NCBI GenBank assembly: GCA_049513195.1
Contig: JBEKWJ010000028.1
Span: 31,600 to 95,599, forward strand
DNA: 64,000 bases
Source of the DNA: Terracidiphilus sp.
GTDB lineage: Bacteria > Acidobacteriota > Terriglobia > Terriglobales > Acidobacteriaceae
Direction of reading: 5' to 3'
The position numbers and the translations under genes are program-made. Below, piece by piece: positions 30,021 through 45,269 of the stretch. Below the pieces are notes generated by a model, which saw only the letters and a list, made by a program, of their open reading frames with translations, was not told where the DNA came from and searched no databases. The first letter of the stretch is position 1. Each line of letters starts with the position of its first letter.

Positions 30021-30281
30021 AAGCTGAACTTAGTGTAGAGGCTGAGCCGCATGAAGCAGTACATTTTCACCGTTGGAGAATTATGAGAGTTATGGAATTC
30101 CAATGAGGAGGGAAACGCATTCACTTTTTGTCCCGAAGAAGACGGCTTCTTGTAATGCTTCCGGGTATTGTCGCCGATACAATCCCCAAGAGCAGAGCCA
30201 TTCTGCCGCTCCCCTCAGGCTTTAGAGCCCCAGAGTCCGAAGGGATGGCGTGGTCATGTAGAGAAAGAGGGAAGACGCGGG

Positions 30282-32771
30282 ATGCTCAATCATGCTAAAG
30301 CCGATCTGCTGGCCTTGATCGAGAGCACTGAAGACTTGTGGGGTTCCGTGGATCTGAATCACCGCTTGCTGGTCTTCAACAAGAACTTCGAGCGCTATAT
30401 TCAACGCAGTTTTGGCGTCCAGGTTGCCGTAGGCATGAGCCCAACGGACATTCTTCCGCCGGATCGTGCGCCCCTCTGGCCGCCGCTGTTTGACCGGGCA
30501 ATCAGCGACGGTACATTTCGCATCGAGCGGAAGTTAGTGAATGGCCGCACTCTGGAGATAGTCTTTCATCCCATCGTCGTGAATGGAAAGACCACGGGCG
30601 TTGCCATCTACGGCAGGGACATCACTGATCGCAAGCAGGCAGAGGACAGTCTAACCACCGCTACCAAGGCCCTGCAAGACAGCGAATTGCGCTACCGCAC
30701 TGCATTCCACACAAGTATCGACGCCTTTTCCATCAGCCGCGTCGAAGATGGAAAGTACTTCGATATCAATCAGGCATTCACCGAAAGCCTGGGATACACG
30801 CGCGAGGACGTCATCGGACGAACCGCTCTGGAACTTGGTATCTGGGTCGACCTTCACGATCGTGAAGAGATGATCCGTCGTCTCACCAAAGATTCCTTCT
30901 GCCGGAATCTGGAGGCGCAGTTCAGAGCAAAGGGTGGACAGACACACTGGGGCATGGTTTCCTCATCGTTGATCGATGTCGACGGCCAATCCTGCCACCT
31001 TGCGCAGGTCAGGGACATCTCGGAAGCGAAAGCCGCCCAGGAATGCATGTCGGCGGCCGCAGAGGCGTTGCGGGTAAGTGAAGAGCGCTATCGTACCGCA
31101 TTTGAGACCAGCCTTGACGGCATCGCACTTACCCACCTCGAGGACGGACTATTTGTCGATGTTAATCCGGCTTTCCTGCGCATCTTTGGATACGATCGGG
31201 ACGAAGTTGTTTTGCGGACCCCCACAGAACTCAGCCTCTGGGCCGATTCCAACGACAGGCTGAAAATGCTCGAAGTGTTGCGCGATGCATCCATCTGCCA
31301 CAATACGGAAGTTCAGCTTCTAAGAAAGAATGGGCAAAAGTTCTGGGTGCAGTTGTCGGCCTCGAAGATCGATCTGGAAGGCATTCCCAGCATATTGGTC
31401 GTGATTCGGGATAACTCTGAAGTTAGGGCGGCAGAGCAGAAGATCGAAGATCTGGCCTTCTTTGACCCGCTCACCCGCCTCCCCAACCGGCGTCAACTGC
31501 TGGACCGGTTGCGCTATACATTGGCTGCCAATCGCGGCAATCGCAATCTGGCGCTGTTACTGATCGACATCGACAACTTCAAGATGTTGAACGACACTCT
31601 GGGCCATCAGTCCGGCGATTTGCTGCTTCAAGAAGTTGCGAAGCGAATCACTGCCAGCGTCCGAGAGACAGATTTTGTGGCGCGGCTGGGAGGAGATGAG
31701 TTTATTGTGCTGCTGGAAGAACTCGGCGATGCACTCGATCATGCGGCGGAACAGGCAAAAACCGTCGGTGAGAAACTTTTGGCGATCATTGCCCAGCCCT
31801 ATCTGCTCGATGGCCGCGAATGTCTCGGCACCGCCAGCATCGGGATCACCGTTTGTGAAGATCGTCGGGAAGAGACAAGTGAAGTTTTGCAGCAAGCCGA
31901 TATTGCCATGGACCTGGCCAAGACCGCGGGCCGCAACACGCTGCGCTTCTTCTCCCCAGCCCTGCGCGCTGCCGTCTCTGCCCGGGCCGCGCTCGAGGAG
32001 GATCTCCGCCAGGCCATTAGCTGCAATCAGTTCCTGCTCTACTATCAGCCCCAAGTTAGCCGCGGCAAAGTGATTGGCGCTGAAGCCCTGATCCGCTGGA
32101 AACATCCCAAGCGCGGTATTGTGCCGCCCAACGACTTTATTCCTCTGGCTGAGGAGACGGGCCTGATCCTGCCCATGGGAGACTGGGTGCTCGAGACAGC
32201 CTGCGAGCAGATTGCCACGTGGGCAAGAACAAAGGAAACCGCCCATCTGGCGATTGCCGTCAATATCAGCGCCCGTCAGTTCCGTCAGCAGAATTTTGAG
32301 CACAGTGTGCTGGCCGCGCTAAAGCGCTCTGGCGCTGATCCTAGAAACCTCAAGTTGGAACTTACTGAGAGCATGCTGGTCGATAACATCGAAGAAGTCA
32401 TCGCCAAGATGACCGCCCTGCGATCCCATGAGATCGGATTCGCCCTCGACGATTTTGGAACTGGCTATTCGTCGCTTTCCTACCTGAAGCGCCTGCCGCT
32501 CGATCAACTGAAGATTGATCGCTCCTTCATCCGCGACATTTTGACCGATGCGTCCAGCGGCGCCATCGCGGAGGCCGTCATTTCGTTGGGCAAGGCCATG
32601 CGAATGCCGGTCATCGCCGAAGGGGTCGAGTCCGAGGAGCAGAGAGTTTTTTTGGCGCGCCTCGGCTGCCACTCGTTCCAGGGTTATTTGACCAGCCGGC
32701 CGCTGCCTCTCGATGATTTTGAAAGACTGATTCAGGCTCTGGCACAAATCGCCGTACCCTATCTCGATTAG
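30282..32771 (+). CDS. PAS x3 - GGDEF - EAL c-di-GMP cyclase/phosphodiesterase (ORF from 30168)
   Basis: Three PAS/PAC repeats; RxxD I-site (RETD) and GGDEF; EAL, ELTE, DDFGTGYSSL, KIDRSF, AEGVE. Confidence 0.93.
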   Translation: MLNHAKADLLALIESTEDLWGSVDLNHRLLVFNKNFERYIQRSFGVQVAVGMSPTDILPPDRAPLWPPLFDRAISDGTFRIERKLVNGRTLEIVFHPIVVNGKTTGVAIYGRDITDRKQAEDSLTTATKALQDSELRYRTAFHTSIDAFSISRVEDGKYFDINQAFTESLGYTREDVIGRTALELGIWVDLHDREEMIRRLTKDSFCRNLEAQFRAKGGQTHWGMVSSSLIDVDGQSCHLAQVRDISEAKAAQECMSAAAEALRVSEERYRTAFETSLDGIALTHLEDGLFVDVNPAFLRIFGYDRDEVVLRTPTELSLWADSNDRLKMLEVLRDASICHNTEVQLLRKNGQKFWVQLSASKIDLEGIPSILVVIRDNSEVRAAEQKIEDLAFFDPLTRLPNRRQLLDRLRYTLAANRGNRNLALLLIDIDNFKMLNDTLGHQSGDLLLQEVAKRITASVRETDFVARLGGDEFIVLLEELGDALDHAAEQAKTVGEKLLAIIAQPYLLDGRECLGTASIGITVCEDRREETSEVLQQADIAMDLAKTAGRNTLRFFSPALRAAVSARAALEEDLRQAISCNQFLLYYQPQVSRGKVIGAEALIRWKHPKRGIVPPNDFIPLAEETGLILPMGDWVLETACEQIATWARTKETAHLAIAVNISARQFRQQNFEHSVLAALKRSGADPRNLKLELTESMLVDNIEEVIAKMTALRSHEIGFALDDFGTGYSSLSYLKRLPLDQLKIDRSFIRDILTDASSGAIAEAVISLGKAMRMPVIAEGVESEEQRVFLARLGCHSFQGYLTSRPLPLDDFERLIQALAQIAVPYLD

Positions 32772-32793
32772 GAGATTCGCGATCCCTGTTTCA

Positions 32794-33465
32794 TCAGTCC
32801 ATTGCCAAGCTCAAATGGTGGCGCACGTCCGCGCCCCGAATCCAGAAGATGACGTCGGTGGCGACATTTGAGGCATGATCGGCGATTCGCTCCAAATGTT
32901 TTGCCACCAAAATTCCGCTGATCGCCTGCTGGGTAAAGCTGGGCTGCTCCTGGATAAACTGAAGCAGGTCGGTGTGGGCGCGGCGGTTCATGCGGTCGAT
33001 CTCGTCGTCCATCTCGCGCACTGAATCCGCCAGTCGCGCGTCTCCCTCCAGCAAAGCCTGCAGGGCCGAGCGAATCATGCGGCCGGCAAACTCGCCCATC
33101 GCCGCAAAATCCACCGGCAGATCGACCTCCTCATGCTTCATGGCCTCTTTGGTGCGGCGTGCAATTCCCATTGATTGATCGCCAATCCGCTCCAGATCGC
33201 CGTTGATCTTGATGACCGCCAAAATGAAGCGCAGATCGACGGCCATCGGCTGCTCCTTGGCCAGCAGTTCATAAGCCATCTCGTCCAACTCGCGCTGCGC
33301 CGTATCGATGGCCCTCTCATTCTGCTTGACGTACTTGCACAGACCCCGATCATGTTGCAGGTATGCGTCGACCGAAGACTCGACCGCCTGCTGCGACAGG
33401 GCCGCCATGGCAAGCAGCTTGTCCTTCAGTTCGGCCAGTTGCAGATGAAAATGAATGCGCGGCAA
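32794..33465 (-). CDS. phoU: Phosphate signalling protein PhoU (orphan)
   Basis: QPMAVDLR, GDLERIGD, KHLERIADHASNVA. Confidence 0.93.
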   Translation of the reverse strand: MPRIHFHLQLAELKDKLLAMAALSQQAVESSVDAYLQHDRGLCKYVKQNERAIDTAQRELDEMAYELLAKEQPMAVDLRFILAVIKINGDLERIGDQSMGIARRTKEAMKHEEVDLPVDFAAMGEFAGRMIRSALQALLEGDARLADSVREMDDEIDRMNRRAHTDLLQFIQEQPSFTQQAISGILVAKHLERIADHASNVATDVIFWIRGADVRHHLSLAMD

Positions 33466-33593
33466 GACAGTTCTCCTTCTATCGATTGTGCACCAAGCAA
33501 TGTTAACAGCAGACGAATTTCCGCAAAAGGACCAAAATTGTCACGTCCGGCGGCGGAATGTTCCAGAGCATTTCCATGGATAGAGAAAGGTCT

Positions 33594-33640
33594 GGGTGCC
33601 CCACCCTTGCCGCGTTTTTGTTTTTGCGGCTAGGGTCGGA
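33594..33640 (+). repeat. GTGCCCC-footed REP-like palindrome
   Basis: GGGTGCCCCACCCTTGCCGC-GTTTTTGTTTTT-GCGGCTAGGGTCGGA; same arms and loop as the outer element at 45270. Confidence 0.75.
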
Positions 33641-33687
33641 TATTACCATGCATTACAGGAATTGTGAAAATGCTTTAGCCTAACACC

Positions 33688-34341
33688 ATGGACCTCACAA
33701 AGTTTTCGCCCGCCGCCACGCTCGCCTTCAACCCCGCCGAGTGCGAGGCCCAGCAGATTTACAAACTTATGACCGGCATCATTGTGCCTCGGCCCGTAGC
33801 GCTGGTCTCGACGATAAGCCGCGACGGCGTGGCCAACCTCGCCCCCTTCAGCTTCTTCAGTGGTGTAGGCGCGGTCCCGCCGACGGTGCTCTTCTGCCCA
33901 GCGCTGCGCCCGGTCGGTTCTCCAGAGGCCGGCGAGCGCAAAGACACGCTGCGCAATGTCGAAGAGACCGGCGAGTTCGTCATCAATGTGGTGAGCGACG
34001 CCATAGCCGTAGCGGCCAACGCCTCTTCAGCTGAAGTGGCTTTTGGCGTGGATGAGTTCGTGCTCTCCGGGCTGACAACCATGGCCAGTGAAGTCGTGCG
34101 CCCTCCGCGCGTAGCTGAGTCGCCGGCGCAGATGGAGTGCAAACTCCTGCAAGTGATCTACACCGGCCGCGAAGCACGCAGCGGCGTCATCGTGCTGGGC
34201 GAGGTGGTTCGCTTTCATCTGCGCGAAGAGTTAATCGATGACTTTCGCATCGATCCCGCAGGCCTGGATGCGGTAGGCCGCATGGCCGGCAACACCTGGG
34301 TCCGCACGCGAGAGCGCATGGAACTTGTGCGGCCGAAGTGA
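33688..34341 (+). CDS. Flavin reductase-like (DIM6/NTAB) protein
   Basis: IVPRPVALVST, NLAPFSFF, KDTLRNVEETGEFVINVV, VGRMAGN. Confidence 0.9.
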   Translation: MDLTKFSPAATLAFNPAECEAQQIYKLMTGIIVPRPVALVSTISRDGVANLAPFSFFSGVGAVPPTVLFCPALRPVGSPEAGERKDTLRNVEETGEFVINVVSDAIAVAANASSAEVAFGVDEFVLSGLTTMASEVVRPPRVAESPAQMECKLLQVIYTGREARSGVIVLGEVVRFHLREELIDDFRIDPAGLDAVGRMAGNTWVRTRERMELVRPK

Positions 34342-34457
34342 GGGGATTATGCGCTATTTTCCCGATGAATCCGTTGAATTCCTGTACGATCCGCATCGGA
34401 TGGTTGCACAAGAACCATCCATTCACCAAGGGTTGTGTCGATTTGGGGTTTGTGGTA

Positions 34458-34490
34458 TCCCAGGTCCCAAAATCCGGACTCGGGGCGCCC
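34458..34490 (-). repeat. REP-like palindrome (ATTTT-loop subfamily)
   Basis: Minus strand GGGCGCCCCGAGTCCGGATTTTGGGACCTGGGA, related to 61361-61394. Confidence 0.6.
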
Positions 34491-34518
34491 AGCCGTCCGA
34501 ATTGAGGCCAAAGGCAGA

Positions 34519-34537
34519 TGGCCCCACCGCAGGTGGT
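34519..34537. repeat. 19-bp motif TGGCCCCACCGCAGGTGGT, identical to 51358-51376
   Basis: Exact match to the right boundary of the RAYT cassette; abuts the MFS stop codon. Confidence 0.75.
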
Positions 34538-35784
34538 CACGAAGCCGTCATCTCCCGCCCCTTGGCTTCCTTGCCCAGCGACGCCAGCCCCGCCAGCGTC
34601 AGCGCCACCACAATCACCGTAATCGCCAGCACACCCGGATAGTTCCCCGTGCGCTCGGCCATCAGTGCCTGCGCTTTTCCATTCCATGAAGTGATCAGGC
34701 CGCCTAACTGGTAAGCCAATCCCGGAGCCGTTGCTCTGACCGGTGCCGGCGATAACTCGGTGAGATAGGCCGGCACCACGCCCCATGCTCCCTGCACCAT
34801 GAATTGCATTAGTACCGCGCCCGCGCCCAGCATGACTGCCGAGTGTCCATACGCATAAAGCGGAATCACAGGAATTGCCAACAGCGCGGCGGTGACGATG
34901 GCCCGCTTGCGACCCCACTTCTCCGACAACGCGCCAAAGACAAAGCCGCCCGCAATCGATCCCAATCCGTACAGCACGCCGATGAGTCCGACGACTTGAG
35001 GTGTGAGCCTGGCCTGTGTCGAGAGAAAGGTCGGATACACATCCTGCGTGCCGTGCGAAAAACTCATGAACGCAGTCATCAACAGTATCAAAAAAAGAAA
35101 CGTCGGAAGAAATGCCCACAGACGGTCCAGGTCCCCAGACTTTGCGTTCTGATCATCCACAGCAGAGCGCGTAAGCCGTCGCTTCTTCCCTTCCAGCCAG
35201 ACGGGAGATTCAGCCACCCTCGCCTGCACATAAAAAACCAGCAAAGCCGGAGCGGAACCCAGCATGAATAGCCCTCGCCAACCGATCCAGTGAAAGAAGA
35301 GTGCGAAAGCGCCTGCAGCCAGGATCGAGCCCAGCGCGTAGCCCTCTTGCAGGATGCCGCTGAATGCGCCGCGCCCTTCTTTAGGCAGCGTCTCAAAGGC
35401 CAGCGCCGCGCCCACGCCCCACTCCCCGCCCATCGCCAGACCAAACAACGCGCGCAACACCAGTAGCGCGCCCAGCGAGGGCGCAAAGGCGCAGGCCAGT
35501 TCAATTACCGAGAAGCTGAAAATGTTGACCATCAACACCGGGCGCCGCCCATAGCGGTCGGCCAGCATGCCAAAAAGCACAGCGCCCACCGGCCTGAAGG
35601 CTTGCGTCATAAAGACCGCCCCCAGTACCGCCGACGGCTGGGAGTGAAAGTCGGCGGCGATGGCTTTTACGCAGAAAATCAATAGAAAAAAGTCGAGCGA
35701 ATCCATCGTCCAGCCCAGAAAGGCAGCCAGAAATGTGTGCCGCTGGGGCCGTGTGAGCCGCCGGAAGTTGTCCAGAATAGACAT
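34537..35784 (-). CDS. MFS transporter (SHS/Jen1-NanT-like; ORF extends to 35946)
   Basis: FLGWTMDSLDF, RPVGAVLFGMLADRYGRRP, GLAMGGEWG, HGTQDVYPTFL, QGAWGVVPAYLTEL. Confidence 0.9.
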   Translation of the reverse strand: MSILDNFRRLTRPQRHTFLAAFLGWTMDSLDFFLLIFCVKAIAADFHSQPSAVLGAVFMTQAFRPVGAVLFGMLADRYGRRPVLMVNIFSFSVIELACAFAPSLGALLVLRALFGLAMGGEWGVGAALAFETLPKEGRGAFSGILQEGYALGSILAAGAFALFFHWIGWRGLFMLGSAPALLVFYVQARVAESPVWLEGKKRRLTRSAVDDQNAKSGDLDRLWAFLPTFLFLILLMTAFMSFSHGTQDVYPTFLSTQARLTPQVVGLIGVLYGLGSIAGGFVFGALSEKWGRKRAIVTAALLAIPVIPLYAYGHSAVMLGAGAVLMQFMVQGAWGVVPAYLTELSPAPVRATAPGLAYQLGGLITSWNGKAQALMAERTGNYPGVLAITVIVVALTLAGLASLGKEAKGREMTAS

Positions 35785-35860
35785 AGACGGCAGCATAACA
35801 GGCAAGAGCGAGCAGAACCTATATCTTCTTTTCGATGTTGGTCTAAAAGGAACAGAAAAC

Positions 35861-35876
35861 ATTTGTTGCAACAAAT
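35861..35876. promoter_or_regulatory. Perfect 16-bp palindrome in the divergent MFS/yceI promoter (candidate MarR operator)
   Basis: ATTTGTTGCAACAAAT. Confidence 0.55.
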
Positions 35877-36015
35877 AACAATCGATGAGCATCGAAGTTG
35901 CACAAGAAGATTTCGCGCGAAAAGCAGTCCCGGTTTCCGCACGCATTCAGCAAGAGCGCTTGTCTCTTCTCAACATCAAGCGGCCTCACGGCCGGCACCG
36001 AAAGGGATTTTGACC

Positions 36016-36594
36016 ATGAAACGTTTAGCAATTGTAACTGGCATTCTGGCGCTGGCTGTTCCTATGGCCATGGCGCAAACCTCAGCCTGGGCCACCGATC
36101 CGGCCCACAGCGAAGTCGATTTTGTCGTGCGCCACGGCGGCGTCTCCAACGTGCATGGCCGCTTTGGCGGCGTCAAAGGAACACTTGTCTACAACGAGGC
36201 GGACATCACCAAATCCACCGTCACAGTCACCATTGACACCGCGACTCTCGACACCGGCGAATCAGCCCGCGACACGCACCTCAAGACCGACGCATTCTTT
36301 GACGTAGTCAAATTCCCCACAGCGGCCTTTACCAGCTCCGGCATAGCAAAGAACGGCACCAAGTTGACGGTGAACGGCAACCTCACCCTGCACGGCGTCA
36401 CACTGCCGGTCGTGCTCGATGTGGAAGGCCCCAGCACTCCGGTTGAAGGCATGGTTGATCACAAACCGCACTCTGGTTTCTCAGCCACCACCACCATCAG
36501 CCGCAAAGCATTCGGTATCGGGTCCAACTTCCCAGCGATCCTGATTGGCGACGAAGTCAAGCTGACCATCGAGGTCGAAATCGTCAAGCAGTAA
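36016..36594 (+). CDS. YceI-family periplasmic protein
   Basis: Signal peptide; DPAHSEVDFVVRHGGVSNVHGRF, RDTHLK, GNLTLHGVT, IGDEVKLTIEVE. Confidence 0.92.
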   Translation: MKRLAIVTGILALAVPMAMAQTSAWATDPAHSEVDFVVRHGGVSNVHGRFGGVKGTLVYNEADITKSTVTVTIDTATLDTGESARDTHLKTDAFFDVVKFPTAAFTSSGIAKNGTKLTVNGNLTLHGVTLPVVLDVEGPSTPVEGMVDHKPHSGFSATTTISRKAFGIGSNFPAILIGDEVKLTIEVEIVKQ

Positions 36595-36673
36595 CGGAGG
36601 AGTGTAACCTGAACAAGGGCGTCGCATTTCGGCGTGCTGCAAAATCTGTGCGCGATAGGGAGCCGCGGCGGCA

Positions 36674-37594
36674 ATGAAACTACGGGACGTTGGGAAGCGA
36701 TGGGACGAGGTAAAGGGCAAGCTGGCGGAACATCATGGTTTACAACGTTGGCTTGCTCGCAAAGTTCTTCCCTTCACGCAACCGCTGGGGTTTAGCGTCA
36801 TCGGCGATCATTTTTACGAGCCGATTCCCAACATCAGGTACATTCAAGTACACTACCAGGACGCGCCCAGAGAACTACCTGGCTTTCATGCAACCCCGTC
36901 TTGGGCTGAAAACGCTGAGAAGATTGTTGAGCCCTATATCGCGGAATATCTCTCCAGCCCCGTTTTTGAAAAATACCGACGGAGGAACTGGTTCTACACG
37001 GGATGGGACGCAGCTTACTATTACTGTCTCATCCGGTCTAGAAAACCGAAATCGATCACCGAGGTAGGCCGTGGTATCTCAACCTGGATTGCAGGAGCAG
37101 CCCTCGACCGCAATGCCGCCGACGGCTACCCCGGCGAGATCGTATCCATCGATCCATATTTTCGCGGCGATGACTCCACTGCCCGCATGCGCATCCTCAC
37201 GAAGGAGCTCCAGCAGATACCAACCACGGAACGCGAAGCCCTGCTGCGTGCGGATATTCTTTTCGTCGACTCCAGCCATATCATCAAGTGGGGCAGCGAC
37301 GTTCTTCAATTGTTCGAGTCCTGGATTCCAAATGTTGCGGTAAACACCCTGGTGCATATCCACGACATCTGCACGCCCTACGACTACCCCCGGCAGTGGT
37401 TGGTGAATGACAAGCGATTCTGGAACGAACAATATTATTTCGAATCGTTCATCGCATTCAATCATGCTTTTCAGATCGAATGTCCACTCTTTTATCTGGC
37501 CAGAACGGGAAGTTTGAAGCAGCTTGCCGGGCGCCTCAATGCTCCTCAACTGGCAGATGCCTCTGGGTTGGCCATGTGGCTCACTCGAGTTTAA
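36674..37594 (+). CDS. Class I SAM-dependent methyltransferase (Methyltransf_24-like)
   Basis: ITEVGRGIST, SIDPY, LFVDSSH, VHIHDI, WNEQY. Confidence 0.8.
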   Translation: MKLRDVGKRWDEVKGKLAEHHGLQRWLARKVLPFTQPLGFSVIGDHFYEPIPNIRYIQVHYQDAPRELPGFHATPSWAENAEKIVEPYIAEYLSSPVFEKYRRRNWFYTGWDAAYYYCLIRSRKPKSITEVGRGISTWIAGAALDRNAADGYPGEIVSIDPYFRGDDSTARMRILTKELQQIPTTEREALLRADILFVDSSHIIKWGSDVLQLFESWIPNVAVNTLVHIHDICTPYDYPRQWLVNDKRFWNEQYYFESFIAFNHAFQIECPLFYLARTGSLKQLAGRLNAPQLADASGLAMWLTRV

Positions 37595-37624
37595 CTCGGC
37601 AAACAGTCGCGGAGAGGCCGTTCC

Positions 37625-38122
37625 ATGGCAGGATTGAAGCTTGAAATCGTGCAGGAACATCCCTTCGCAAGCCTCGAAGAAGAAGCTCTGCTTGGCTTGC
37701 TGCGCACATCCGACAGCCTCAACCGCGCCCTTCAGCTGAAGATCCGCGAATGGGGCGTGAGTTCTACGCAGTATAACGTGCTTAGAATTCTGCGTGGGGC
37801 GCAACCGGAAGGGCTTACCTGTTCGGACATCCGCAGCCGGATGATTACGGCTGAGCCTGACATCACACGTCTGCTGGCGAGACTGAAGGCGCTCAAGCTG
37901 ATCCGTCAGCAGCGCGATATCCATGACCGCCGAGTACTATGGACGCGGATTTCAGCTCCGGGGCTCAAATTGCTGCGTGAGATGGACCCCGTGATTCTTC
38001 GGGCTCCGCGGGAGCTTCTGGCAGGTCTGGACCAGAATGAATTGACGCAGTTGATTCATCTTCTGGAACTGGCGCGGGGGCGCAGTCAGGAAGTACGGTT
38101 GCCGCTTACAAAACGGGCCTGA
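37625..38122 (+). CDS. MarR-family transcriptional regulator
   Basis: TQYNVLRILRGA, PDITRLLARLKALKLIRQQRDIHDRR. Confidence 0.9.
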   Translation: MAGLKLEIVQEHPFASLEEEALLGLLRTSDSLNRALQLKIREWGVSSTQYNVLRILRGAQPEGLTCSDIRSRMITAEPDITRLLARLKALKLIRQQRDIHDRRVLWTRISAPGLKLLREMDPVILRAPRELLAGLDQNELTQLIHLLELARGRSQEVRLPLTKRA

Positions 38123-38131
38123 ACAGCGAAC

Positions 38132-38908
38132 CTACTGGCCCACCATCTTCTGCACCACAGTTTCGTCATCCGCATCGGTCTTGATGATTTTGTTATGCAG
38201 GCAATAGAGGGCAAGTTCCAGCCGGTCGCTGACACCCAGCTTGTCATAGATCTTGCGTAAATAATTCTTGATGACCTGCTCCGTCGTTCCCAACTGAAAG
38301 GCAATCTCTTTGTTGCGTTTGCCCTGGGTGATGCAGGTAATAATGGCCATCTCCTTGGGCGAAAGCTTCGGCTGAACGCGCGGGTTCACCAGCGCGGAGG
38401 CCTGGGCCCGATACGCTTCGATCACCCAACTGACCGATTGATTGTCAATCCAGGTCTCGCCGGCCGCAATCCGCCGCACACACCTGACCAGCAAGTCGGG
38501 CGAGATGGACCGGCTGACGATGCCGCGAACGCCGCGGCGATATAATTCGACCGTCTGATTTTCATCGGCTGCCACGGCCTGCACAATCAGCTTCACATCG
38601 GGTGCAGCGCGCAGCAAATCGGGAATCACGTTGGCAGTGCCGCTGAGCAGACTACCCTCAAGGAGAACAATATCAGTGGGATAGCGCTCAATGGCTGCCC
38701 GCAGATTCTCCAGCGAATCGGCCTGAGCCACTACGCGAAGATCATCCTCAAGCGCGAAGACTTTGCGAATACCAACGCGATAAATCGCCTGAGAATCAGC
38801 AAGAATCACTCGGACTGTTCCGGGCTTTACCGGAGCGTCAACGGTTTCACTGTCAGCAGAATCGTCCAAAAAATCCATAAGTGGTTGTGGCCCTACTCCG
38901 GTTGTCAC
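38132..38908 (-). CDS. LuxR/NarL-type regulator with atypical (pseudo) receiver domain
   Basis: Receiver fold with ILADSQ, IVLLEG and IVSRS in place of the canonical residues; LSPKEMAII...TEQVIKNYLRKIYDKLGVSDR HTH. Confidence 0.88.
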   Translation of the reverse strand: MTTGVGPQPLMDFLDDSADSETVDAPVKPGTVRVILADSQAIYRVGIRKVFALEDDLRVVAQADSLENLRAAIERYPTDIVLLEGSLLSGTANVIPDLLRAAPDVKLIVQAVAADENQTVELYRRGVRGIVSRSISPDLLVRCVRRIAAGETWIDNQSVSWVIEAYRAQASALVNPRVQPKLSPKEMAIITCITQGKRNKEIAFQLGTTEQVIKNYLRKIYDKLGVSDRLELALYCLHNKIIKTDADDETVVQKMVGQ

Positions 38909-39297
38909 TGCTCGGCAAATTGGTAATCGTCGATGGTTGCGGCAGCCTGATAGTTACTTTGGTTCTTGGAGCAGCGTACCACACGACCTTGGCAATGAAC
39001 CAGAACATCTCGCGGAGTACCCAGGATTTCACCAGGCATACGAAGGGAAAAACGAATCTCCAGCCCTGCTTGCACCGGGGTTTCCATCTCGAAAACTACC
39101 CCACTGGCGGAAACATTCCGGGTGATGGCAGCAATTTCCCCTTTTTCAGACGATAACACCACTGGCAGTGCCAGAGGAAAACGGACCGAGCAACGCACTT
39201 CCTGCTGCTGAAAAGCTGGCTTGGAACGAGAAGACGAAGACGATAAACTAGATTTTGAAGCGTCCATAGACGGCATTTCCGACCCCCAACTAGCCAT
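38905..39297 (-). CDS. Stand-alone PilZ-domain protein
   Basis: RCSVR (RxxxR) and NVSASG (D/NxSxxG); 4-bp stop/start overlap with the downstream regulator. Confidence 0.85.
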   Translation of the reverse strand: MASWGSEMPSMDASKSSLSSSSSRSKPAFQQQEVRCSVRFPLALPVVLSSEKGEIAAITRNVSASGVVFEMETPVQAGLEIRFSLRMPGEILGTPRDVLVHCQGRVVRCSKNQSNYQAAATIDDYQFAEQ

Positions 39298-39565
39298 TCA
39301 CACTGTACTGGAGTTTGATTAGTAAACCTACGGCACCAAAGTTTCCAAGAAGGTAACCCTTTTGTTTCATAGGCGGACAAACAGGGTTCCGTGTGCCAAA
39401 GCTTATAGGCTTTCTCAAATTACCCACAGAAAAACTACCTGATACTAAGGTTAAACGATTTTCACGACCGTTCCGGCGTATAAGACCAGATCCCGGCGCA
39501 AACCTAATGGATAGTGCGCGCTGGAGGCGATACGTTACAAAAATATTTCCTTAGTTGCAGGATTC

Positions 39566-40519
39566 TCAGCGCTTGCCCGTCCCGCCTGCCTTGCCGCCCA
39601 AAAACGCCGACCAGCGCAACTCCGGCACATGCGGCGCTCTCTTCGCCTTGGCAATCACCAAATCCGCCATCTCTTTGACGACCCAGTCAAAGTGAACCTG
39701 ACCAATCGAGTGCACATCGGCGTCGGGCACAGGGTTCATAAAGTCGATGGCGTAAGGAATTCCATTCTCAACCGCAAACTCAACTGTGTTGAAGTGATAG
39801 CCCAGGGCGCGGCAAAGCGTGATTGCGTCTTGCCGGATGCGTTTGAGCAGCTTCTTGCTGGCGTGAGACGGGCTCTCGACATAGCGCTCCGAGTGCGGCA
39901 GACGCGGGTCGTAAGCCATGATGCGAACCTTCTTCTGGCCCACCACATAGCAGCGAAAATATTCCGTGAACTCGACGGCCTTCTGGTAGACCATGCATAG
40001 GTCGCGAGTCTGGTCGTAGGCGCGAAAAAACTCCGCGCGGCTGTGAACCTCATACACGTCGCGCCAGCCGCCGCCGTCCACAGGCTTCAGAAAGCCATGC
40101 TCGCCCACGTAGGCAAATATCGTCTCCCAATCCAGCGGATATTCCAGGTTCCGCATCGTGCGGTCTGTAGCGCCTTCCGGAAGCTGTTTGTGCGGCAGCA
40201 TCACAGTAGCGGGCACAGCCACCCGCAGCTTCGCGGCCAGCGAGTAGTTAAAAAACTTATCATCCGCTGAAGCCCAAAAAGGATTGTTGATAACCACCGT
40301 TCCGTTGAGAGCGGCGTGCTTCAAAAATGCGCGATAGAAGGGAACAGCGTGCGATATGCGGTCTATGATAACGGCGTAACGCGGAACCAGGTCGCGCCGA
40401 ACCGCGCCCGTCAAAACAAACTCTGCTTCGATGCCGTTGATGTTGCGCGCGTTGATTTGCTCCACTAGCGCGCCAGGAAAGCTGTTTTCCCCGCCGAAGA
40501 GTATGCCGATCCTTTTCAT
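39566..40519 (-). CDS. ATP-grasp (RimK/glutathione-synthetase-like) ligase
   Basis: VINNPFW..ADDKF, FLKPVDGGGWRDVY, FNTVEFAV, YAIDFMNP; GGAGG RBS. Confidence 0.8.
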   Translation of the reverse strand: MKRIGILFGGENSFPGALVEQINARNINGIEAEFVLTGAVRRDLVPRYAVIIDRISHAVPFYRAFLKHAALNGTVVINNPFWASADDKFFNYSLAAKLRVAVPATVMLPHKQLPEGATDRTMRNLEYPLDWETIFAYVGEHGFLKPVDGGGWRDVYEVHSRAEFFRAYDQTRDLCMVYQKAVEFTEYFRCYVVGQKKVRIMAYDPRLPHSERYVESPSHASKKLLKRIRQDAITLCRALGYHFNTVEFAVENGIPYAIDFMNPVPDADVHSIGQVHFDWVVKEMADLVIAKAKRAPHVPELRWSAFLGGKAGGTGKR

Positions 40520-40680
40520 AACCTCCCTCCGGGATGCATTTGCCGGCAACAGCGCGTCCGCCAGTGCCGAATTGCACGCATCCAGTGTACGGCAGGCGCG
40601 CTCCCAATCTGTGCGCGCTGCACTGGAAAGAACCAGCCGGCAGGTGTAACTTTGAAAGTGTTTAGTTTTGCGGGGGGAAC

Positions 40681-41322
40681 GTGGATTACCGCGTATTGAC
40701 AGTGAATCGGGAGTTTGGCAGCGGCGGCGGACGTATCGCGCAGACCATTGCCGAGTGGCTCGGATGGAAGTTGTTGGACCGCGACATTATCGACGCCATC
40801 GCCTACGCGGCCCATGTGGACCCCAAAATCGTGCGGCCCTACGATGAGCATGTGGATTCCTGGCTGCGCCGCATCAACCAGCAGGCCATGCGCAGCGCAG
40901 CCCTGGCCGCCGGACTTGAACTCGGCGAGAACTCCGTTTTCGATGCAGAGGAGATGGTGAAAATCTCGCGCAAGATCGTCGAAGAAGCGTACGTCGAGGG
41001 CAATTGCGTCATCGTGGGCCGAGGGTCGCAGTGCATCCTGCAGCACAAGCCCGACGTCTACCACGCCTTCATCTACGCGCCTTATCTCGACCGTTTAGAG
41101 CGCCTGCGCGGCCGCCTCGACAAAGGCGTGCACGCCGAGCAGCGCATACGCATCGTGGATGAAGAGCGCGCCAAGTACTTGCAGCAGTACTACGGCAAGT
41201 GCTGGAACAACCCCCACCTCTACGACCTGATGATCAGCTCGCGCACCGACGAAGACATGACCGCGCGCGCCATCCTCTACGCCATGAACGGCGAAGTGCC
41301 AGTTGCGGTGAACAAGGAATAG
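40681..41322 (+). CDS. Cytidylate kinase-like family protein
   Basis: TVNREFGSGGGRIA P-loop, CVIVGRGSQ, DEERAKY, YDLMISS. Confidence 0.85.
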   Translation: MDYRVLTVNREFGSGGGRIAQTIAEWLGWKLLDRDIIDAIAYAAHVDPKIVRPYDEHVDSWLRRINQQAMRSAALAAGLELGENSVFDAEEMVKISRKIVEEAYVEGNCVIVGRGSQCILQHKPDVYHAFIYAPYLDRLERLRGRLDKGVHAEQRIRIVDEERAKYLQQYYGKCWNNPHLYDLMISSRTDEDMTARAILYAMNGEVPVAVNKE

Positions 41323-41380
41323 GGAACAGCCGCGCCTGAGCGAGAAACTATTCCCTGTTCCCTTTTCCCTACTTCCCTGC
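41316..41380. repeat. CTGTTCC-type heptamer repeats in inverted arrangement
   Basis: GGAATAGGGAACAG ... CTATTCC CTGTTCC CTTTTCC CTACTTCC. Confidence 0.6.
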
Positions 41381-43624
41381 TTTTACATCCCAATCAAAGC
41401 TGATCTGAGCGATCAGACCATTCAGCTTTTCGACGGCGGCCTTCTTCTGCTGCTCCAGGTCGGCGGTCTGCTTGCGCGTAGCCTGCAACTGATCTTCGGC
41501 GCGATTCAACTCATCCACAAAGCGCTTGGCCGCATCGTTGCCCTTGAGCGCGGTCAGGTTCTCGCGGTCGCGCGCTTCGTCGGCAGAGGCTGCCTGTTCT
41601 GTCGCCTTGGATTCCTTGATACGACGATCCAAATCTGCCAGCGCCGCCTCCGCATCAATCACCGGCTTGAGCTTGTCGAGCGCATCGGGAACCCGTTTGA
41701 CCAAGTCAAGCAAATAGACCGACTGATTCTGACTGGAATTCAGCCAGACCTGCGTTCTCTCCGGCCCTTGCTCGCGCACCTCTAGCTTCTGCGTAGAGTG
41801 CGCCGGAACCGGCAGTTTGAAGCGATAGAGGCCAGGCGCGGTCTCGTCGGCCTTCAGATCGCCATCCAGCGTCCAGCCGTTAGTATGGCGCGGATGTTCG
41901 ATCAGCACATCGCGGGTTCCGTCCGATGAGTTGGTTGCCGAGTAGGTCTTCGACTCCCAATTCATATAGGTTTCGACGACGTAACCATTGCCGATTTGCA
42001 CGTGATGCAATGTGCGCCGGTTGTCGCGATCCGTCACCTTCACGCGCACCGCTTGGTCAGCAGCGTAAGAGAGCAGCCGCCGCTCGCCGGGATGAATGGG
42101 GTCAAGCAAGCCTTCTCCGGCAAACTCACCGCTCTCAAAGATCGAAAAGCTTCCCGAGTCAAGCGTCAGCTTCGATTTGTTTTCTAGCCACACCGCACGC
42201 AGCGGCGTCGGCTCCTTCTCGCTCCACAGCGTGACATGCTCGGCAGGCAATTCCTGTTGCAGGATCGGCACCATCGCCGACTCGTTCTTGTGAATCGTCA
42301 CCGGCGCGGTCAGCGCGTACTCGAAAAAGTCATCGAAGGCGTTGGTGGTAACGTCGCCCTCTTTGTAGGCGTCGCTGGCACGGTCTACGCCCTCTTCACT
42401 TTGGACGGTAACAGTTTCACTAGTGTTGGCGCTATTGGACGATGGTCCAAATCCTGCCCCGTATCCATATCCGGAGCCAGAACGAAGACCTCCACCTGAC
42501 TCCGCCATCCTTACGTTCGATGGAATTCTTTGGGGCGCAGAAAGTTTTGCGGCCATTTCGATTTTGTCGAACTGTTTATTCGACTGTGGCGAAGGCGGAG
42601 GAGCTGCCGTCTCCGCCGCTTCATGCGTCTGCGGCGTCAACTGAGCATCGACAGCAATCGGAATTTCCTGCCGCCGCGTGTATATCGGCTGCGAGAGCGG
42701 CTGAATAAAGCTTTGCGGCGCGCCGGCCACCAGCGATAACTGCACATTGTCCCAATCCGCGCCCACGGTGTTATCGACCACCGCCCAGCCCTGCATGGTA
42801 GCGCTCCCGTTCGGCGTGCGCGGAAAGACAATGCGGTAAGTCGACTTCCATACGGGAACCTCGCTGATGTAACTGACACGCAACTCGCGCTGACCCTGGC
42901 CCAGAGCATCGAGAGTAAGGTGCCGCAGGCCGGTCGAGTGCGTAGTCGAAAGCAATTCCAGATAGCGGCTGAGTTCTCCCTGAAGGGTCGTATCCAATGG
43001 CCGTACGCTCAGCGCGGGGATTAACTCAATCACTCGCACCGAGCCCGATGTCGCAACAATCGAGAGATAGATCTTTTCTATGGTCGTACCGGCGTCGCTG
43101 CCGGCAACCTTCTCCGTGCGCGACTCAATAGAGAGCAACCGGCCCGTAATCGTCCCGCCCGGCGCGCCTGTAACCTCGACCCGCTGCCCGCGCAACGCCT
43201 GAAACAACTCAGTCGAAGTGGGGTCGTCCGTCATGCCCAGCGAGAGCGATTTAAGCTGCTCGGCAAGCGGCGTGGTCGAGTTATAGTTGACCCCGGCGAT
43301 GCGCCCTCCACCCTCGTCCAGCACGGTCAGCGATTGCAAAACATCGTTCAACTGCGGCGAAGTAAAGTCGATCGCCACGCGCTGATTGCCTGTGACCGAC
43401 CCAGCGTGCTCAAAGTAGCCCACGCCATTTTTGTAGAGCACGACCTTGCGCACCGGCAGGTCCTTCACCACCACCTGCGGTGGGGCCAACTGCGCCTTTG
43501 ACGCAGCGGATTTAGGCGCAGCCGGAGTCTGAGCGGTAAGAGAAACTGTGAGGGCAAAAGTCACTGCGAGGGCAAGCAGACATAGAACTGCGAAAGAACG
43601 GCGCACGAATCCTCCTTGGGCCAA
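41369..43624 (-). CDS. Secreted DUF4139-domain protein
   Basis: LPVRKVVLYKNGVGYFEH, LNDVLQSL, SYISEVPVWKSTYR, GWAVVDNT..DW.NVQLSLV.G; C-terminal coiled coil. Confidence 0.8.
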   Translation of the reverse strand: MAQGGFVRRSFAVLCLLALAVTFALTVSLTAQTPAAPKSAASKAQLAPPQVVVKDLPVRKVVLYKNGVGYFEHAGSVTGNQRVAIDFTSPQLNDVLQSLTVLDEGGGRIAGVNYNSTTPLAEQLKSLSLGMTDDPTSTELFQALRGQRVEVTGAPGGTITGRLLSIESRTEKVAGSDAGTTIEKIYLSIVATSGSVRVIELIPALSVRPLDTTLQGELSRYLELLSTTHSTGLRHLTLDALGQGQRELRVSYISEVPVWKSTYRIVFPRTPNGSATMQGWAVVDNTVGADWDNVQLSLVAGAPQSFIQPLSQPIYTRRQEIPIAVDAQLTPQTHEAAETAAPPPSPQSNKQFDKIEMAAKLSAPQRIPSNVRMAESGGGLRSGSGYGYGAGFGPSSNSANTSETVTVQSEEGVDRASDAYKEGDVTTNAFDDFFEYALTAPVTIHKNESAMVPILQQELPAEHVTLWSEKEPTPLRAVWLENKSKLTLDSGSFSIFESGEFAGEGLLDPIHPGERRLLSYAADQAVRVKVTDRDNRRTLHHVQIGNGYVVETYMNWESKTYSATNSSDGTRDVLIEHPRHTNGWTLDGDLKADETAPGLYRFKLPVPAHSTQKLEVREQGPERTQVWLNSSQNQSVYLLDLVKRVPDALDKLKPVIDAEAALADLDRRIKESKATEQAASADEARDRENLTALKGNDAAKRFVDELNRAEDQLQATRKQTADLEQQKKAAVEKLNGLIAQISFDWDVKAGK

Positions 43625-43773
43625 CCAACTAAGAACTCTACTCTCTTAGACCCCGCCCTTGGCAAAATGGTTCCCATGAAAACCAAAAAACTCCCCCAAT
43701 CATGCACCATCGAGTGTTCATAATCACAGCCGCCCGCGCCATTCGTGAATAACCTGCAAGAGGAGAGTTATCC

Positions 43774-44364
43774 ATGAGCGAGACAAAGATCAAGGTTGTT
43801 GCATTCAACGGTAGCGCACGCAAAGAAGGAAACACGGCCATTCTGCTGCGTTATGTTTTGAAAGAACTTGAAAGCGAAGGGATCGAAACCGAACTTATTG
43901 AACTAAGCGGAGCAAAGATTCACGGCTGTCTGGCCTGCCGCAAATGCTCTGAAAACAAAGATCGCCGATGCGGGCAAAAAGGCGATGTGGGCAACGCCTT
44001 GATCGAGAAGATGGAAGAGGCGGACGGCATCCTGCTTGGCTCGCCGACTTATGTCGCCGACATCTCTCCTGAGATCAAAGCCCTCATGGATCGCGCCTGC
44101 CTGGTCTCCAAGGCAAACGGCGGCCTCTTCCGTCGCAAGGTGGGCGCTGCTGTTGTAGCGGTGCGCCGCGCGGGAGCCATCCACGCCTTCGATTCACTCA
44201 ACCATTTCTTTCTGATCAGCGAAATGATCGTGCCCGGCTCGTCTTATTGGAATATCGCGATGGGTCTAGCGCCCGGCGATGTCGAAAAAGATGAAGAAGG
44301 TATTCGAACCATGAAAGTCCTCGGCCAGAACATGGCGTGGCTGCTGAAAAAGATCAAGAATTAA
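43774..44364 (+). CDS. Iron-sulfur flavoprotein / NADPH-dependent FMN reductase family
   Basis: NGSARKEGNT, CLACRKCSENKDRRC Cys cluster, GSPTY, RRAGA, KDEEGIRTM. Confidence 0.9.
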   Translation: MSETKIKVVAFNGSARKEGNTAILLRYVLKELESEGIETELIELSGAKIHGCLACRKCSENKDRRCGQKGDVGNALIEKMEEADGILLGSPTYVADISPEIKALMDRACLVSKANGGLFRRKVGAAVVAVRRAGAIHAFDSLNHFFLISEMIVPGSSYWNIAMGLAPGDVEKDEEGIRTMKVLGQNMAWLLKKIKN

Positions 44365-44409
44365 AGTGCACTTCTCTTTCTGCAAGACAGGCATCGGTCT
44401 TGGATTTTT

Positions 44410-44441
44410 CTGTTCCCTGTTCCCTGTTCCCTTTTCCCTGC
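44410..44441 (+). repeat. (CTGTTCC)3-CTTTTCC heptamer tandem
   Basis: Three exact copies plus one variant, between convergent genes. Confidence 0.7.
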
Positions 44442-44442
44442 T

Positions 44443-45153
44443 TCAAAGATACTCCCGCGCCATGCGCTGCCAGGTGGGCCAGTCGTGGGAGTTCAGCACA
44501 TCCCAAACATGAAACTGGTGCGCAATGCCTTTCTCGTTCATGATCCTGTCAAGAAGTCGATTCTGAGCGAGGCACGGATCGTCGAAACCCGTGGCCAGCA
44601 CATAGCCTGAGCCACGATATCGATCAAGATACCAGGGGTCGCTTAAATTCGGCAGATAATGCGTGGGTAAGTTGTAGTAGCACTCCTGGTCATAATATCC
44701 GTGAAGAAAATTGGAGAGGTCAAAGGCGCCGGAGAGCGAGACAAAGCCCGTGAAAATCTCCGGATGGCGCAGGGCAATGTTGACGGCGTGATAGCCGCCG
44801 AAGCTGCACCCCAGCAACACCAGACGCGGATCTGAGTTTTTCTGCCGAATCAGCGAAACCGCTTCGTGAATCAGGTATTCCTCGTATTGCACATGACGGG
44901 CAACGCGCCATCTCGGGGCGACACTCCGGTTATACCAACTCTCGCCGTCCACCGAGTCCACGCAGAAAAGCTGCAATTGGCCAGCGTTGATCTTGTCCGT
45001 GAGAGCGGCAATCATCCCCCGGTCTTCAAAGTCGAAGAAGCGCCCGCACGATGTAGGAAAGACCACGACAGGCAGCCCCGCATGACCGAAGATGAGCAAC
45101 TCCATCTCCCGGCCCAGGCGGGCGGAATACCCTTTGTGATACTCGCGAACCAT
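44443..45153 (-). CDS. Putative esterase (alpha/beta hydrolase; ORF extends to 45213)
   Basis: LGREMELLIFGHAGLPVVVFPTS, GCSFGGYHA nucleophile elbow, HDWPTW. Confidence 0.85.
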   Translation of the reverse strand: MVREYHKGYSARLGREMELLIFGHAGLPVVVFPTSCGRFFDFEDRGMIAALTDKINAGQLQLFCVDSVDGESWYNRSVAPRWRVARHVQYEEYLIHEAVSLIRQKNSDPRLVLLGCSFGGYHAVNIALRHPEIFTGFVSLSGAFDLSNFLHGYYDQECYYNLPTHYLPNLSDPWYLDRYRGSGYVLATGFDDPCLAQNRLLDRIMNEKGIAHQFHVWDVLNSHDWPTWQRMAREYL

Positions 45154-45269
45154 GCTGTCTACGCTCCGTGCGCTTTGTGAGTGGCGGCTCTGAATCTGGC
45201 TCCAGTCAAGCAAAAAACAGCCGCCGGTTTCAAGTTCCTGTTACAGCCGGCATGAATAGTGTAAGGTCA

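What the first reader, a model, noticed from the sequence alone, without database searches (positions are those of the whole stretch)
38132..39297. PilZ protein translationally coupled to a non-phosphorylatable LuxR regulator
Seen: PilZ has both c-di-GMP motifs (RCSVR, NVSASG) and overlaps the regulator start by 4 bp. In the receiver, the DD pocket reads DS, the phospho-acceptor D is E (IVLLEG), the switch Thr is missing (IVQAV) and the conserved Lys is R (IVSRS). No kinase is adjacent, and a motif-intact PAS-GGDEF-EAL gene lies about 5 kb away. Inference: a c-di-GMP-to-transcription relay in which PilZ binding replaces phosphorylation.
Basis: partly seen in the sequence, partly recalled or inferred. 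Interest (0 to 1): 0.65.

Follow-up and report, generated by a model that had tools for sequence, protein, structure and literature searches.

The report
Conserved PilZ plus pseudo-receiver regulator operon
A peat-bog Terracidiphilus (Acidobacteria) carries a two-gene operon, kept throughout its family, that pairs a small c-di-GMP-sensor-type protein (PilZ) with a DNA-binding regulator that has lost its phosphorylation site; this suggests, but does not prove, that the sensor protein controls the regulator in place of a kinase.

Summary
The residue-level observations hold. The PilZ ORF has RCSVR and NVSASG. The NarL/LuxR-type regulator reads DS / E / A / R where NarL has DD / D59 / S87 / K109. 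No kinase lies within about 7 kb, and a motif-intact PAS-GGDEF-EAL gene lies 5.4 kb away.

The 4-bp overlap comes from taking the longest ORF. The conserved start, also used by gene callers, is ATG 38878, 26 nt after the PilZ stop.

- PilZ lies directly upstream of the regulator in 110/110 Terracidiphilus loci and in 40 of 41 loci from about 40 other genera of the family.
- The c-di-GMP motifs, the Glu (61/64) and the Arg (64/64) are fixed.
- A paralogous regulator clade also often has a PilZ upstream.
- More distant canonical homologues sometimes have a PilZ downstream.

Physical coupling is untested. AlphaFold2 on natural read-through fusions gave no confident docking (pTM 0.43 and 0.59). 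The VpsT c-di-GMP motif is absent (WIDN).

The closest known systems are the mrkHI operon, TssZ-HinK and HapZ-SagS. Verdict: a real, conserved, undescribed variant of known c-di-GMP adaptor themes, with the mechanism only inferred.

The parts
38905..39297 (-). Single-domain PilZ gene. The longest ORF is 130 aa. The conserved and called start is M11 at 39267, giving 120 aa.
   Evidence: Pfam PF07238 E=1.1e-10, 42.2 bits. 1400 homologues were found, mostly called at 120 aa. The ortholog consensus starts at M11. An AlphaFold2 beta-barrel model of a 71%-identical ortholog has pLDDT above 90.
39181..39195 (-). RxxxR c-di-GMP motif (R35-C-S-V-R39)
   Evidence: Read from the translation. In 64 orthologs from more than 20 genera the first R is kept in 58/64 and the second R in 64/64.
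39100..39117 (-). [D/N]xSxxG c-di-GMP motif (N61-V-S-A-S-G66)
   Evidence: N/D, S and G are each kept in 64/64.
38879..38904 (-). 26-nt spacer between the PilZ TGA and the regulator's conserved ATG. It has no promoter-like or terminator-like site.
   Evidence: Junction comparison in 30 loci. Spacer range over 177 loci is -8 to 193 nt, with the mode at 29-30 nt. Promoter/terminator scan.
38132..38878 (-). NarL/FixJ-type (LuxR HTH) regulator with a pseudo-receiver, 248 aa from the ATG. The GTG at 38908 is an unconserved ORF extension.
   Evidence: The Foldseek top hits of the ortholog model are LiaR, VraR, RcsB, DesR and NarL, with E down to 2e-15.
38792..38797 (-). Acidic pocket D28-S29 (NarL D13-D14)
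   Evidence: NarL alignment. A-D-[S/T]-Q is kept in 63-64 of 64.
38657..38659 (-). Glu74 (GAG) at the phospho-acceptor position (NarL D59)
   Evidence: E in 61/64, D in 2, A in 1.
38510..38512 (-). Arg123 at the conserved Lys position (NarL K109)
   Evidence: R in 64/64 and in all 80 family rows of the tree.
38441..38452 (-). W143-I-D-N. It aligns with the VpsT c-di-GMP motif W-L-T-R but lacks the T/S and the R.
   Evidence: HMMER alignment to 3kln. W in 64/64, D in 62/64, N in 58/64.
38204..38368 (-). GerE/LuxR helix-turn-helix DNA-binding domain
   Evidence: PF00196, 49.8 bits. Nearly invariant across genera.
39300..39358 (-). Conserved block upstream of pilZ (GGTTACCTTCTTGGAAACTTTGGTGCCGTAGGTTTA...). 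It is a candidate promoter or operator and has sigma-54-like GG-N10-GC spacing at 39333..39347.
   Evidence: Alignment of 112 genus loci, with the core at least 90% conserved. It is not consistently present in other genera. It is unique in the genome apart from two chance copies inside ORFs.
37625..38122 (+). Convergent MarR-family gene, 9 nt from the regulator's stop. It is a frequent third neighbour.
   Evidence: Pfam MarR_2. Present in 87/110 genus loci and in about half of the loci from other genera.

Best explanation
pilZ and the regulator form a bicistronic operon that is a core signalling module of the family Acidobacteriaceae.

Shown or well supported:
- The two genes are adjacent on the same strand throughout the family.
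- The PilZ protein keeps all the residues that canonical PilZ domains use to bind c-di-GMP.
- The regulator has a NarL-type receiver + HTH fold. Its phosphorylation chemistry is replaced by a fixed D-S/T, Glu, Arg set.
- No cognate kinase is present nearby.

Inferred:
- The regulator is phosphorylation-independent. Glu74 and Arg123 possibly lock the receiver in a fixed conformation.
- The c-di-GMP-loaded (or c-di-GMP-free) PilZ adaptor binds the regulator, most likely its pseudo-receiver. This switches its dimerisation or DNA binding, so that c-di-GMP level rather than a kinase sets the transcriptional output.
- The sign of the effect (activation or sequestration) cannot be told.
For: - The pair is present in 110/110 Terracidiphilus loci, 20/20 loci from 19 other genera and 20/21 lower-identity orthologs. 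Over 177 non-redundant loci the spacer is -8 to 193 nt, mostly 3-52 nt.
- The regulator ortholog is in 271/273 sampled family genomes and absent from the sister family and the rest of the phylum.
- Fixed residues: PilZ R..R, N/DxSxxG; regulator E 61/64, R 64/64.
- The regulator tree has one 100/100 clade on a long stem carrying the degenerate signature. It contains a paralogous sub-clade whose members also often have a PilZ upstream.
- PilZ proteins next to these regulators group together, apart from the genome's other PilZ proteins.
- 4 of 13 distant NarL-type homologues in other classes have a PilZ immediately downstream.
- Distance-matrix correlation r(PilZ,REG)=0.90. The partial r given MarR is 0.62, higher than the other two partials.
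- PilZ has invariant residues outside the ligand site: G94, R98, I112-D113-x-Y115.
- Precedents: a PilZ adaptor binds a transcription factor (TssZ-HinK, PMC10912698) and a REC domain (HapZ-SagS, described in bioRxiv 10.1101/2020.02.11.943704).
Against: - There is no direct evidence of binding.
- AlphaFold2 (ptm, single chain) on natural read-through PilZ-linker-regulator fusions with 64 paired rows gave well-folded domains. However, pTM was 0.43 for three domains and 0.59 for PilZ + receiver only. My estimate (an inference, not a tool result) is roughly 0.5 if the domains are undocked and 0.7 if docked.
- PilZ evolves about three times faster than the regulator (mean distance 0.63 against 0.20).
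- The genome's paralogous pseudo-receiver regulator (C11:121701-122381) has no adjacent PilZ, so such regulators can work without a neighbouring PilZ.
- Conserved adjacency is equally compatible with mere co-expression.
Confidence: 0.45

Rival explanations
1. Co-expression only. The regulator is a constitutively active, abundance-controlled atypical response regulator. It may autoregulate the operon. The PilZ protein made with it acts on a different target, such as a motor, a secretion system or a polysaccharide synthase. The genes are linked for stoichiometric or co-timed expression, not because the proteins touch.
For: - AlphaFold2 gave no confident docking.
- PilZ diverges much faster than the regulator.
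- In the Klebsiella mrkHI operon, PilZ-type MrkH acts on DNA itself while the LuxR-type MrkI has a separate, unclear role (PMC3161979).
- The paralogous regulator in this genome lacks a PilZ neighbour.
Against: - Adjacency is kept across about 40 genera, in a paralogous pair and, in the reverse order, in other classes. This is stronger linkage than co-regulation usually preserves.
- PilZ-regulator distances correlate beyond the neighbouring MarR control.
- No conserved candidate PilZ target gene is in the neighbourhood.
Confidence: 0.3
2. The pseudo-receiver is switched by another protein or ligand. One option is heterodimerisation with the paralogous pseudo-receiver regulator, as with BldM-WhiI in Streptomyces. 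Another is a small molecule. In this case PilZ is a secondary modulator or unrelated.
For: - A paralogous regulator clade co-occurs in most family genomes (two matches per genome).
- Atypical NarL-type regulators that work by heterodimerisation are known (PMC4125116, listed).
- The alpha6 'GETWIDN' segment is invariant without a known role.
Against: Nothing here points to a specific alternative ligand. This reading does not explain the strict PilZ adjacency.
Confidence: 0.13
3. The regulator binds c-di-GMP directly, in the manner of VpsT. PilZ acts as a competitor or buffer for the nucleotide.
For: The regulator's invariant Trp143 aligns exactly with the Trp of the VpsT W[F/L/M][T/S]R motif at the start of alpha6. 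VpsT is among the sequence and fold matches.
Against: The motif reads W-I-D-N. The Thr/Ser and the Arg of the motif are replaced, and D and N are themselves conserved (62/64 and 58/64). That this Arg is essential for c-di-GMP binding in VpsT comes from my own knowledge and was not checked here.
Confidence: 0.07

Closest known systems
mrkH-mrkI operon of Klebsiella pneumoniae (PMC3161979)
   Same: A PilZ-domain gene is followed on the same transcript by a FixJ/LuxR/CsgD-type regulator gene that lacks the VpsT c-di-GMP motif. The setting is c-di-GMP-dependent transcription control.
   Different: MrkH is a 234-aa two-domain PilZ protein that binds DNA itself. Here PilZ is a 120-130-aa single domain. 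MrkI is 197 aa and its role is unclear. The mrk pair is confined to a fimbrial cluster of a few enterobacteria. This pair is a family-wide core module with no conserved target genes beside it. No sequence orthology was shown.
TssZ (PA0012)-HinK of Pseudomonas aeruginosa (PMC10912698)
   Same: A single-domain PilZ adaptor binds a transcription factor and changes its DNA binding as a function of c-di-GMP.
   Different: According to the paper's Discussion, HinK is a LysR-type regulator, although the abstract says 'LasR-type'. It is not a NarL-type pseudo-receiver protein. c-di-GMP weakens the interaction. The partner was found by a two-hybrid screen, not by gene adjacency.
HapZ (PA2799)-SagS of P. 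aeruginosa (as described in bioRxiv 10.1101/2020.02.11.943704)
   Same: A single-domain PilZ adaptor docks on a receiver (REC) domain in a c-di-GMP-dependent way.
   Different: The target is the REC of a hybrid histidine kinase, and the effect is on phosphotransfer. Here the receiver cannot be phosphorylated and carries a DNA-binding domain.
VpsT / CsgD class of atypical LuxR-type regulators (PDB 3kln/3klo)
   Same: A NarL-type fold with a receiver that is not controlled by phosphorylation. There is a Trp at the same alpha6 position. The setting is c-di-GMP signalling.
   Different: The W[F/L/M][T/S]R motif is not met (WIDN). VpsT needs no PilZ partner.
Orphan atypical NarL-type response regulators (e.g. 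BldM/WhiI of Streptomyces, PMC4125116)
   Same: Loss of phosphorylation-pocket residues, no cognate kinase, and a LuxR HTH output.
   Different: None of these is reported with a conserved PilZ partner. The D-S/E/R signature here defines its own clade.

Membership tests
PilZ domain c-di-GMP receptors (PF07238) | Profile match above the curated cut-off | tested here: met
   42.2 bits against 22.5, E=1.1e-10
PilZ domain c-di-GMP receptors (PF07238) | RxxxR motif in the N-terminal arm | tested here: met
   R35-C-S-V-R39. Kept in 58/64 and 64/64 orthologs.
PilZ domain c-di-GMP receptors (PF07238) | [D/N]xSxxG motif | tested here: met
   N61-V-S-A-S-G66. Kept in 64/64 at all three positions.
PilZ domain c-di-GMP receptors (PF07238) | Measured c-di-GMP binding | not testable with these tools
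   Needs DRaCALA or ITC.
NarL/FixJ-family response regulators | C-terminal GerE/LuxR HTH | tested here: met
   PF00196, 49.8 bits against 23.5
NarL/FixJ-family response regulators | Receiver (CheY-like) fold | tested here: met
   The Pfam Response_reg match is below the cut-off (25.5 against 30.2). The AlphaFold2 model of an ortholog shows beta1-alpha5 with pLDDT above 90. Foldseek matches LiaR, VraR, RcsB and NarL with probability 1.0.
NarL/FixJ-family response regulators | Phospho-acceptor Asp at the end of beta3 | tested here: not met
   Glu74 under NarL D59. E in 61/64.
NarL/FixJ-family response regulators | Acidic pair, Thr/Ser and Lys of the phosphorylation pocket | tested here: not met
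   DS, Ala and Arg. R in 64/64.
NarL/FixJ-family response regulators | Cognate histidine kinase | tested here: not met
   None adjacent, 30168-45213. A distant kinase cannot be excluded.
VpsT-type c-di-GMP-binding regulators | W[F/L/M][T/S]R motif at alpha6 | tested here: not met
   It aligns as W-I-D-N and is conserved as such.
PilZ adaptor-partner pairs (TssZ-HinK, HapZ-SagS type) | Stand-alone single-domain PilZ | tested here: met
   120-130 aa, one PilZ domain
PilZ adaptor-partner pairs (TssZ-HinK, HapZ-SagS type) | Physical, c-di-GMP-modulated binding to the partner | tested here: inconclusive
   Single-chain AlphaFold2 of read-through fusions gave pTM 0.43 and 0.59. No PAE or coordinates were available and no ligand was included.
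mrkHI-type operon | PilZ gene and LuxR-type regulator gene co-transcribed | tested here: inconclusive
   Same strand, 26-nt spacer, no promoter or terminator between them.
mrkHI-type operon | PilZ protein with two PilZ-like domains that itself binds DNA | tested here: not met
   Single domain only

The most novel reading that the evidence does not exclude
In a whole bacterial family, the kinase input of a NarL-type master regulator has been replaced by a trans-acting second-messenger adaptor. c-di-GMP-loaded PilZ docks on a receiver that is frozen by a Glu/Arg pair and switches transcription. The module later duplicated as a unit (pair 1 and pair 2). This would be the first case of a PilZ protein acting as the 'sensor half' of a former two-component system.
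Probability: 0.3. Interest if true: 0.7.

Novelty: new variant of a known kind. Interest (0 to 1): 0.5.

Why it matters
Acidobacteriaceae are among the most abundant soil and peat bacteria, yet their regulation is almost unstudied. This regulator is one of their most conserved transcription factors, at 56-92% identity across about 40 genera. It is always sold as a package with a c-di-GMP-receptor-type protein.

If PilZ really drives the pseudo-receiver, this shows how a two-component output can be rewired to a second messenger. It would also give a defined two-protein entry point to the c-di-GMP regulon of this phylum, covering lifestyle, matrix and motility decisions in soil.

The hypothesis is directly testable with two small soluble proteins and culturable relatives.

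Tried and rejected
- A c-di-GMP riboswitch or other RNA family around the operon: no Rfam match at E<=1 in 37500-40000.
- Sigma-70 promoter or terminator between or around the genes: none useful.
- The overlapping GTG start: rejected by the junction comparison.
- VpsT-like direct c-di-GMP binding: the motif is not met.
- Sigma-54 promoter upstream of pilZ: the genus-conserved block has GG-N10-GC spacing, but the motif is not kept in other genera. The two look-alike copies in the genome lie inside ORFs. Left as a side note.
- Docking by AlphaFold2: only single-chain prediction was possible, so I used natural in-frame read-through fusions with stops read as Gly.
- Literature on this pair in Acidobacteria: none found.
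- The nearby PAS-GGDEF-EAL gene as part of the module: rejected. Five unrelated genes lie between it and the pair.
- Natural PilZ-regulator gene fusions: none among 177 loci.

Full report
**What is there.**
- On the minus strand, ORF 38905..39297 (130 aa) matches the PilZ domain (PF07238, 42.2 bits, cut-off 22.5). It carries R35-C-S-V-R39 and N61-V-S-A-S-G66.
- ORF 38132..38908 has a GerE/LuxR HTH (49.8 bits). Its receiver match falls below Pfam's cut-off (25.5 against 30.2).
- Its best NCBIfam matches are NarL-type regulators, all far below their cut-offs.
- The HMMER alignment to E. coli NarL (1a04) places D-S under D13-D14, Glu under D59, Ala under S87 and Arg under K109.
- The fourteen ORFs scanned between 30168 and 45213 include no histidine kinase.
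- The PAS-GGDEF-EAL gene at 30168..32771 is intact. It is separated from the pair by five unrelated genes (PhoU, flavin reductase, MFS, YceI, methyltransferase) plus MarR.
- The window comes from a Terracidiphilus MAG (Acidobacteriaceae). I take this from the record titles of near-identical loci.

**The junction.**
- The 4-bp overlap (GTGA) exists only if the regulator starts at the first in-frame GTG.
- In 29 other genus loci the stretch between the PilZ stop and a conserved ATG (M-[D/E]-F-L-D-D) varies in length and frame and often carries stops.
- The ortholog alignment begins at that Met. Gene callers aa.
- The regulator therefore most likely starts at 38878, 26 nt after the PilZ stop.
- Over 177 non-redundant loci the spacer runs from -8 to 193 nt. 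The mode is 29-30 nt in the genus and 3-18 nt in other genera.
- The genes are tightly linked everywhere, but 'coupling by overlap' is not a feature of this locus.
- PilZ itself probably starts at M11 (39267).

**Conservation of the pair.**
- The regulator has orthologs at 74-92% identity in the genus.
- At the family level, 271 of 273 sampled genomes have a match at E<=1e-40, and orthologs in other genera are 47-77% identical. The sister family has none.
- In 400 genomes of the phylum, nothing above 40% identity lies outside the family.
- A PilZ gene lies directly upstream on the same strand in:
  - 110/110 Terracidiphilus loci;
  - 20/20 loci from 19 other genera;
  - 20/21 of the most divergent orthologs.
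- In an alignment of 64 pairs from more than 20 genera, the PilZ ligand residues are fixed: R 58/64, R 64/64, N/D 64/64, S 64/64, G 64/64.
- The regulator's odd residues are fixed too: A-D-[S/T]-Q 63-64/64, Glu 61/64, Arg 64/64, Trp143 64/64.
- This is a selected state, not decay.

**Evolutionary picture.**
- In a maximum-likelihood tree, all family regulators form one 100/100 clade on a long stem (2.78). Their signature is D-[S/T/N]-[E/S/A]-x-R, against the DDDTK of homologues elsewhere in the phylum.
- Inside this clade sits a 100/100 paralogous sub-clade (pair 2) in which even the Glu is lost.
- Pair-2 regulators also have a PilZ upstream in several genera. In this genome the pair-2 regulator (C11:121701-122381) does not. 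It instead lies divergent to a PAS-GGDEF-like gene.
- PilZ proteins of pair 1, pair 2 and three of the four 'downstream' ones group together, apart from the genome's multi-domain PilZ proteins. Support is moderate (85-95) on about 115 columns.
- Four of thirteen distant homologues in other classes have a PilZ immediately downstream, two of them with canonical receivers and two with partly degenerate ones.
- PilZ-regulator distance matrices correlate at r=0.90. After controlling for the neighbouring MarR gene the partial r is 0.62, against 0.31 and 0.46 for the other two partials. This is weak supportive evidence only.

**Tests of mechanism.**
- The regulator's invariant Trp143 aligns with the Trp of VpsT's W[F/L/M][T/S]R c-di-GMP motif, but the motif reads W-I-D-N. 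VpsT-like direct binding is therefore not supported.
- No multimer predictor was available. I used natural loci where the spacer is in frame, read the stops as Gly, and folded PilZ-linker-regulator as one chain with 64 paired rows.
- All domains folded well (pLDDT about 90). pTM was 0.43 for the three-domain chain and 0.59 for PilZ + receiver.
- My rough expectation, which is an inference, is about 0.5 undocked and about 0.7 docked. This is inconclusive, and no PAE or coordinates could be read.
- Foldseek places the regulator among ordinary NarL-family folds such as LiaR, VraR, RcsB, DesR and NarL. VpsT ranks 34th.
- No riboswitch was found, and no promoter or terminator lies between the genes.

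**Comparison with what is known.**
- Three published systems each cover part of the idea.
  - The mrkHI operon of Klebsiella has the same gene arrangement. There the two-domain PilZ protein itself binds DNA, and the role of the LuxR-type MrkI is unclear (PMC3161979).
  - TssZ-HinK shows a single-domain PilZ adaptor controlling a transcription factor. HinK is an LTTR according to the paper's Discussion, and c-di-GMP weakens the binding (PMC10912698).
  - HapZ-SagS shows a PilZ adaptor docking on a receiver domain (bioRxiv 10.1101/2020.02.11.943704).
- I found no paper on the acidobacterial pair.
- Earlier notes of this scan flag the same pairing in other acidobacterial genomes. I treated them as leads. 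They pointed me to the TssZ and mrkHI papers, which I read myself.

**Verdict.**
- The pair is a conserved, selected, family-wide module.
- 'PilZ replaces the kinase' is the best single reading, at about 0.45. It is unproven, and simple co-expression is the main rival.
- It is a new variant of known c-di-GMP adaptor themes, of moderate interest and readily testable.

Noticed in passing
window 39300-39358 (- strand): A block of about 45 nt upstream of pilZ (GGTTACCTTCTTGGAAACTTTGGTGCCGTAGGTTTA) has a core at least 90% conserved in 112 Terracidiphilus loci. It contains TGG-N10-GC spacing like a sigma-54 -24/-12 promoter, matching 8 of 11 consensus positions. It is not kept in other genera.
   Followed up: partly
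own genome C36:525-1073: A second single-domain PilZ (RERQR, DLSNRG) has a textbook sigma-54 promoter, TGGCACTGAGATTGCA, about 190 nt upstream. It lies beside two NtrC-type enhancer-binding protein genes. In the PilZ tree it groups with the regulator-associated PilZ proteins.
   Followed up: partly
own genome C11:119498-122381: A paralogous pseudo-receiver LuxR regulator (ILADSQ / IVIFAAS / VVFRN) has no PilZ neighbour. It lies divergent to a PAS-GGDEF-like gene with a degenerate motif (RWGDDEY), next to a MotA/ExbB-like gene.
   Followed up: partly
window 37625-38122 (+): A MarR-family gene converges on the regulator, with stops 9 nt apart. This arrangement is kept in 87/110 genus loci and about half of the other genera. 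It is a possible third member, or simply old synteny.
   Followed up: partly
window 39566-40549 (-): The 327-aa gene upstream of pilZ has no Pfam or NCBIfam match. It is present next to the pair in only 14 of 110 genus loci.
   Followed up: no
L215, L221, L223, L227 (other Acidobacteriota classes): NarL-type regulators at 30-40% identity, two with canonical and two with partly degenerate receivers, have a PilZ gene immediately downstream. The PilZ-regulator link may therefore predate the loss of phosphorylation.
   Followed up: partly
PMC10912698: The abstract calls HinK 'LasR-type', but the Discussion says it is a member of the LTTR (LysR-type) family. The earlier scan note that compared it with a LuxR regulator should be read with this in mind.
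   Followed up: yes
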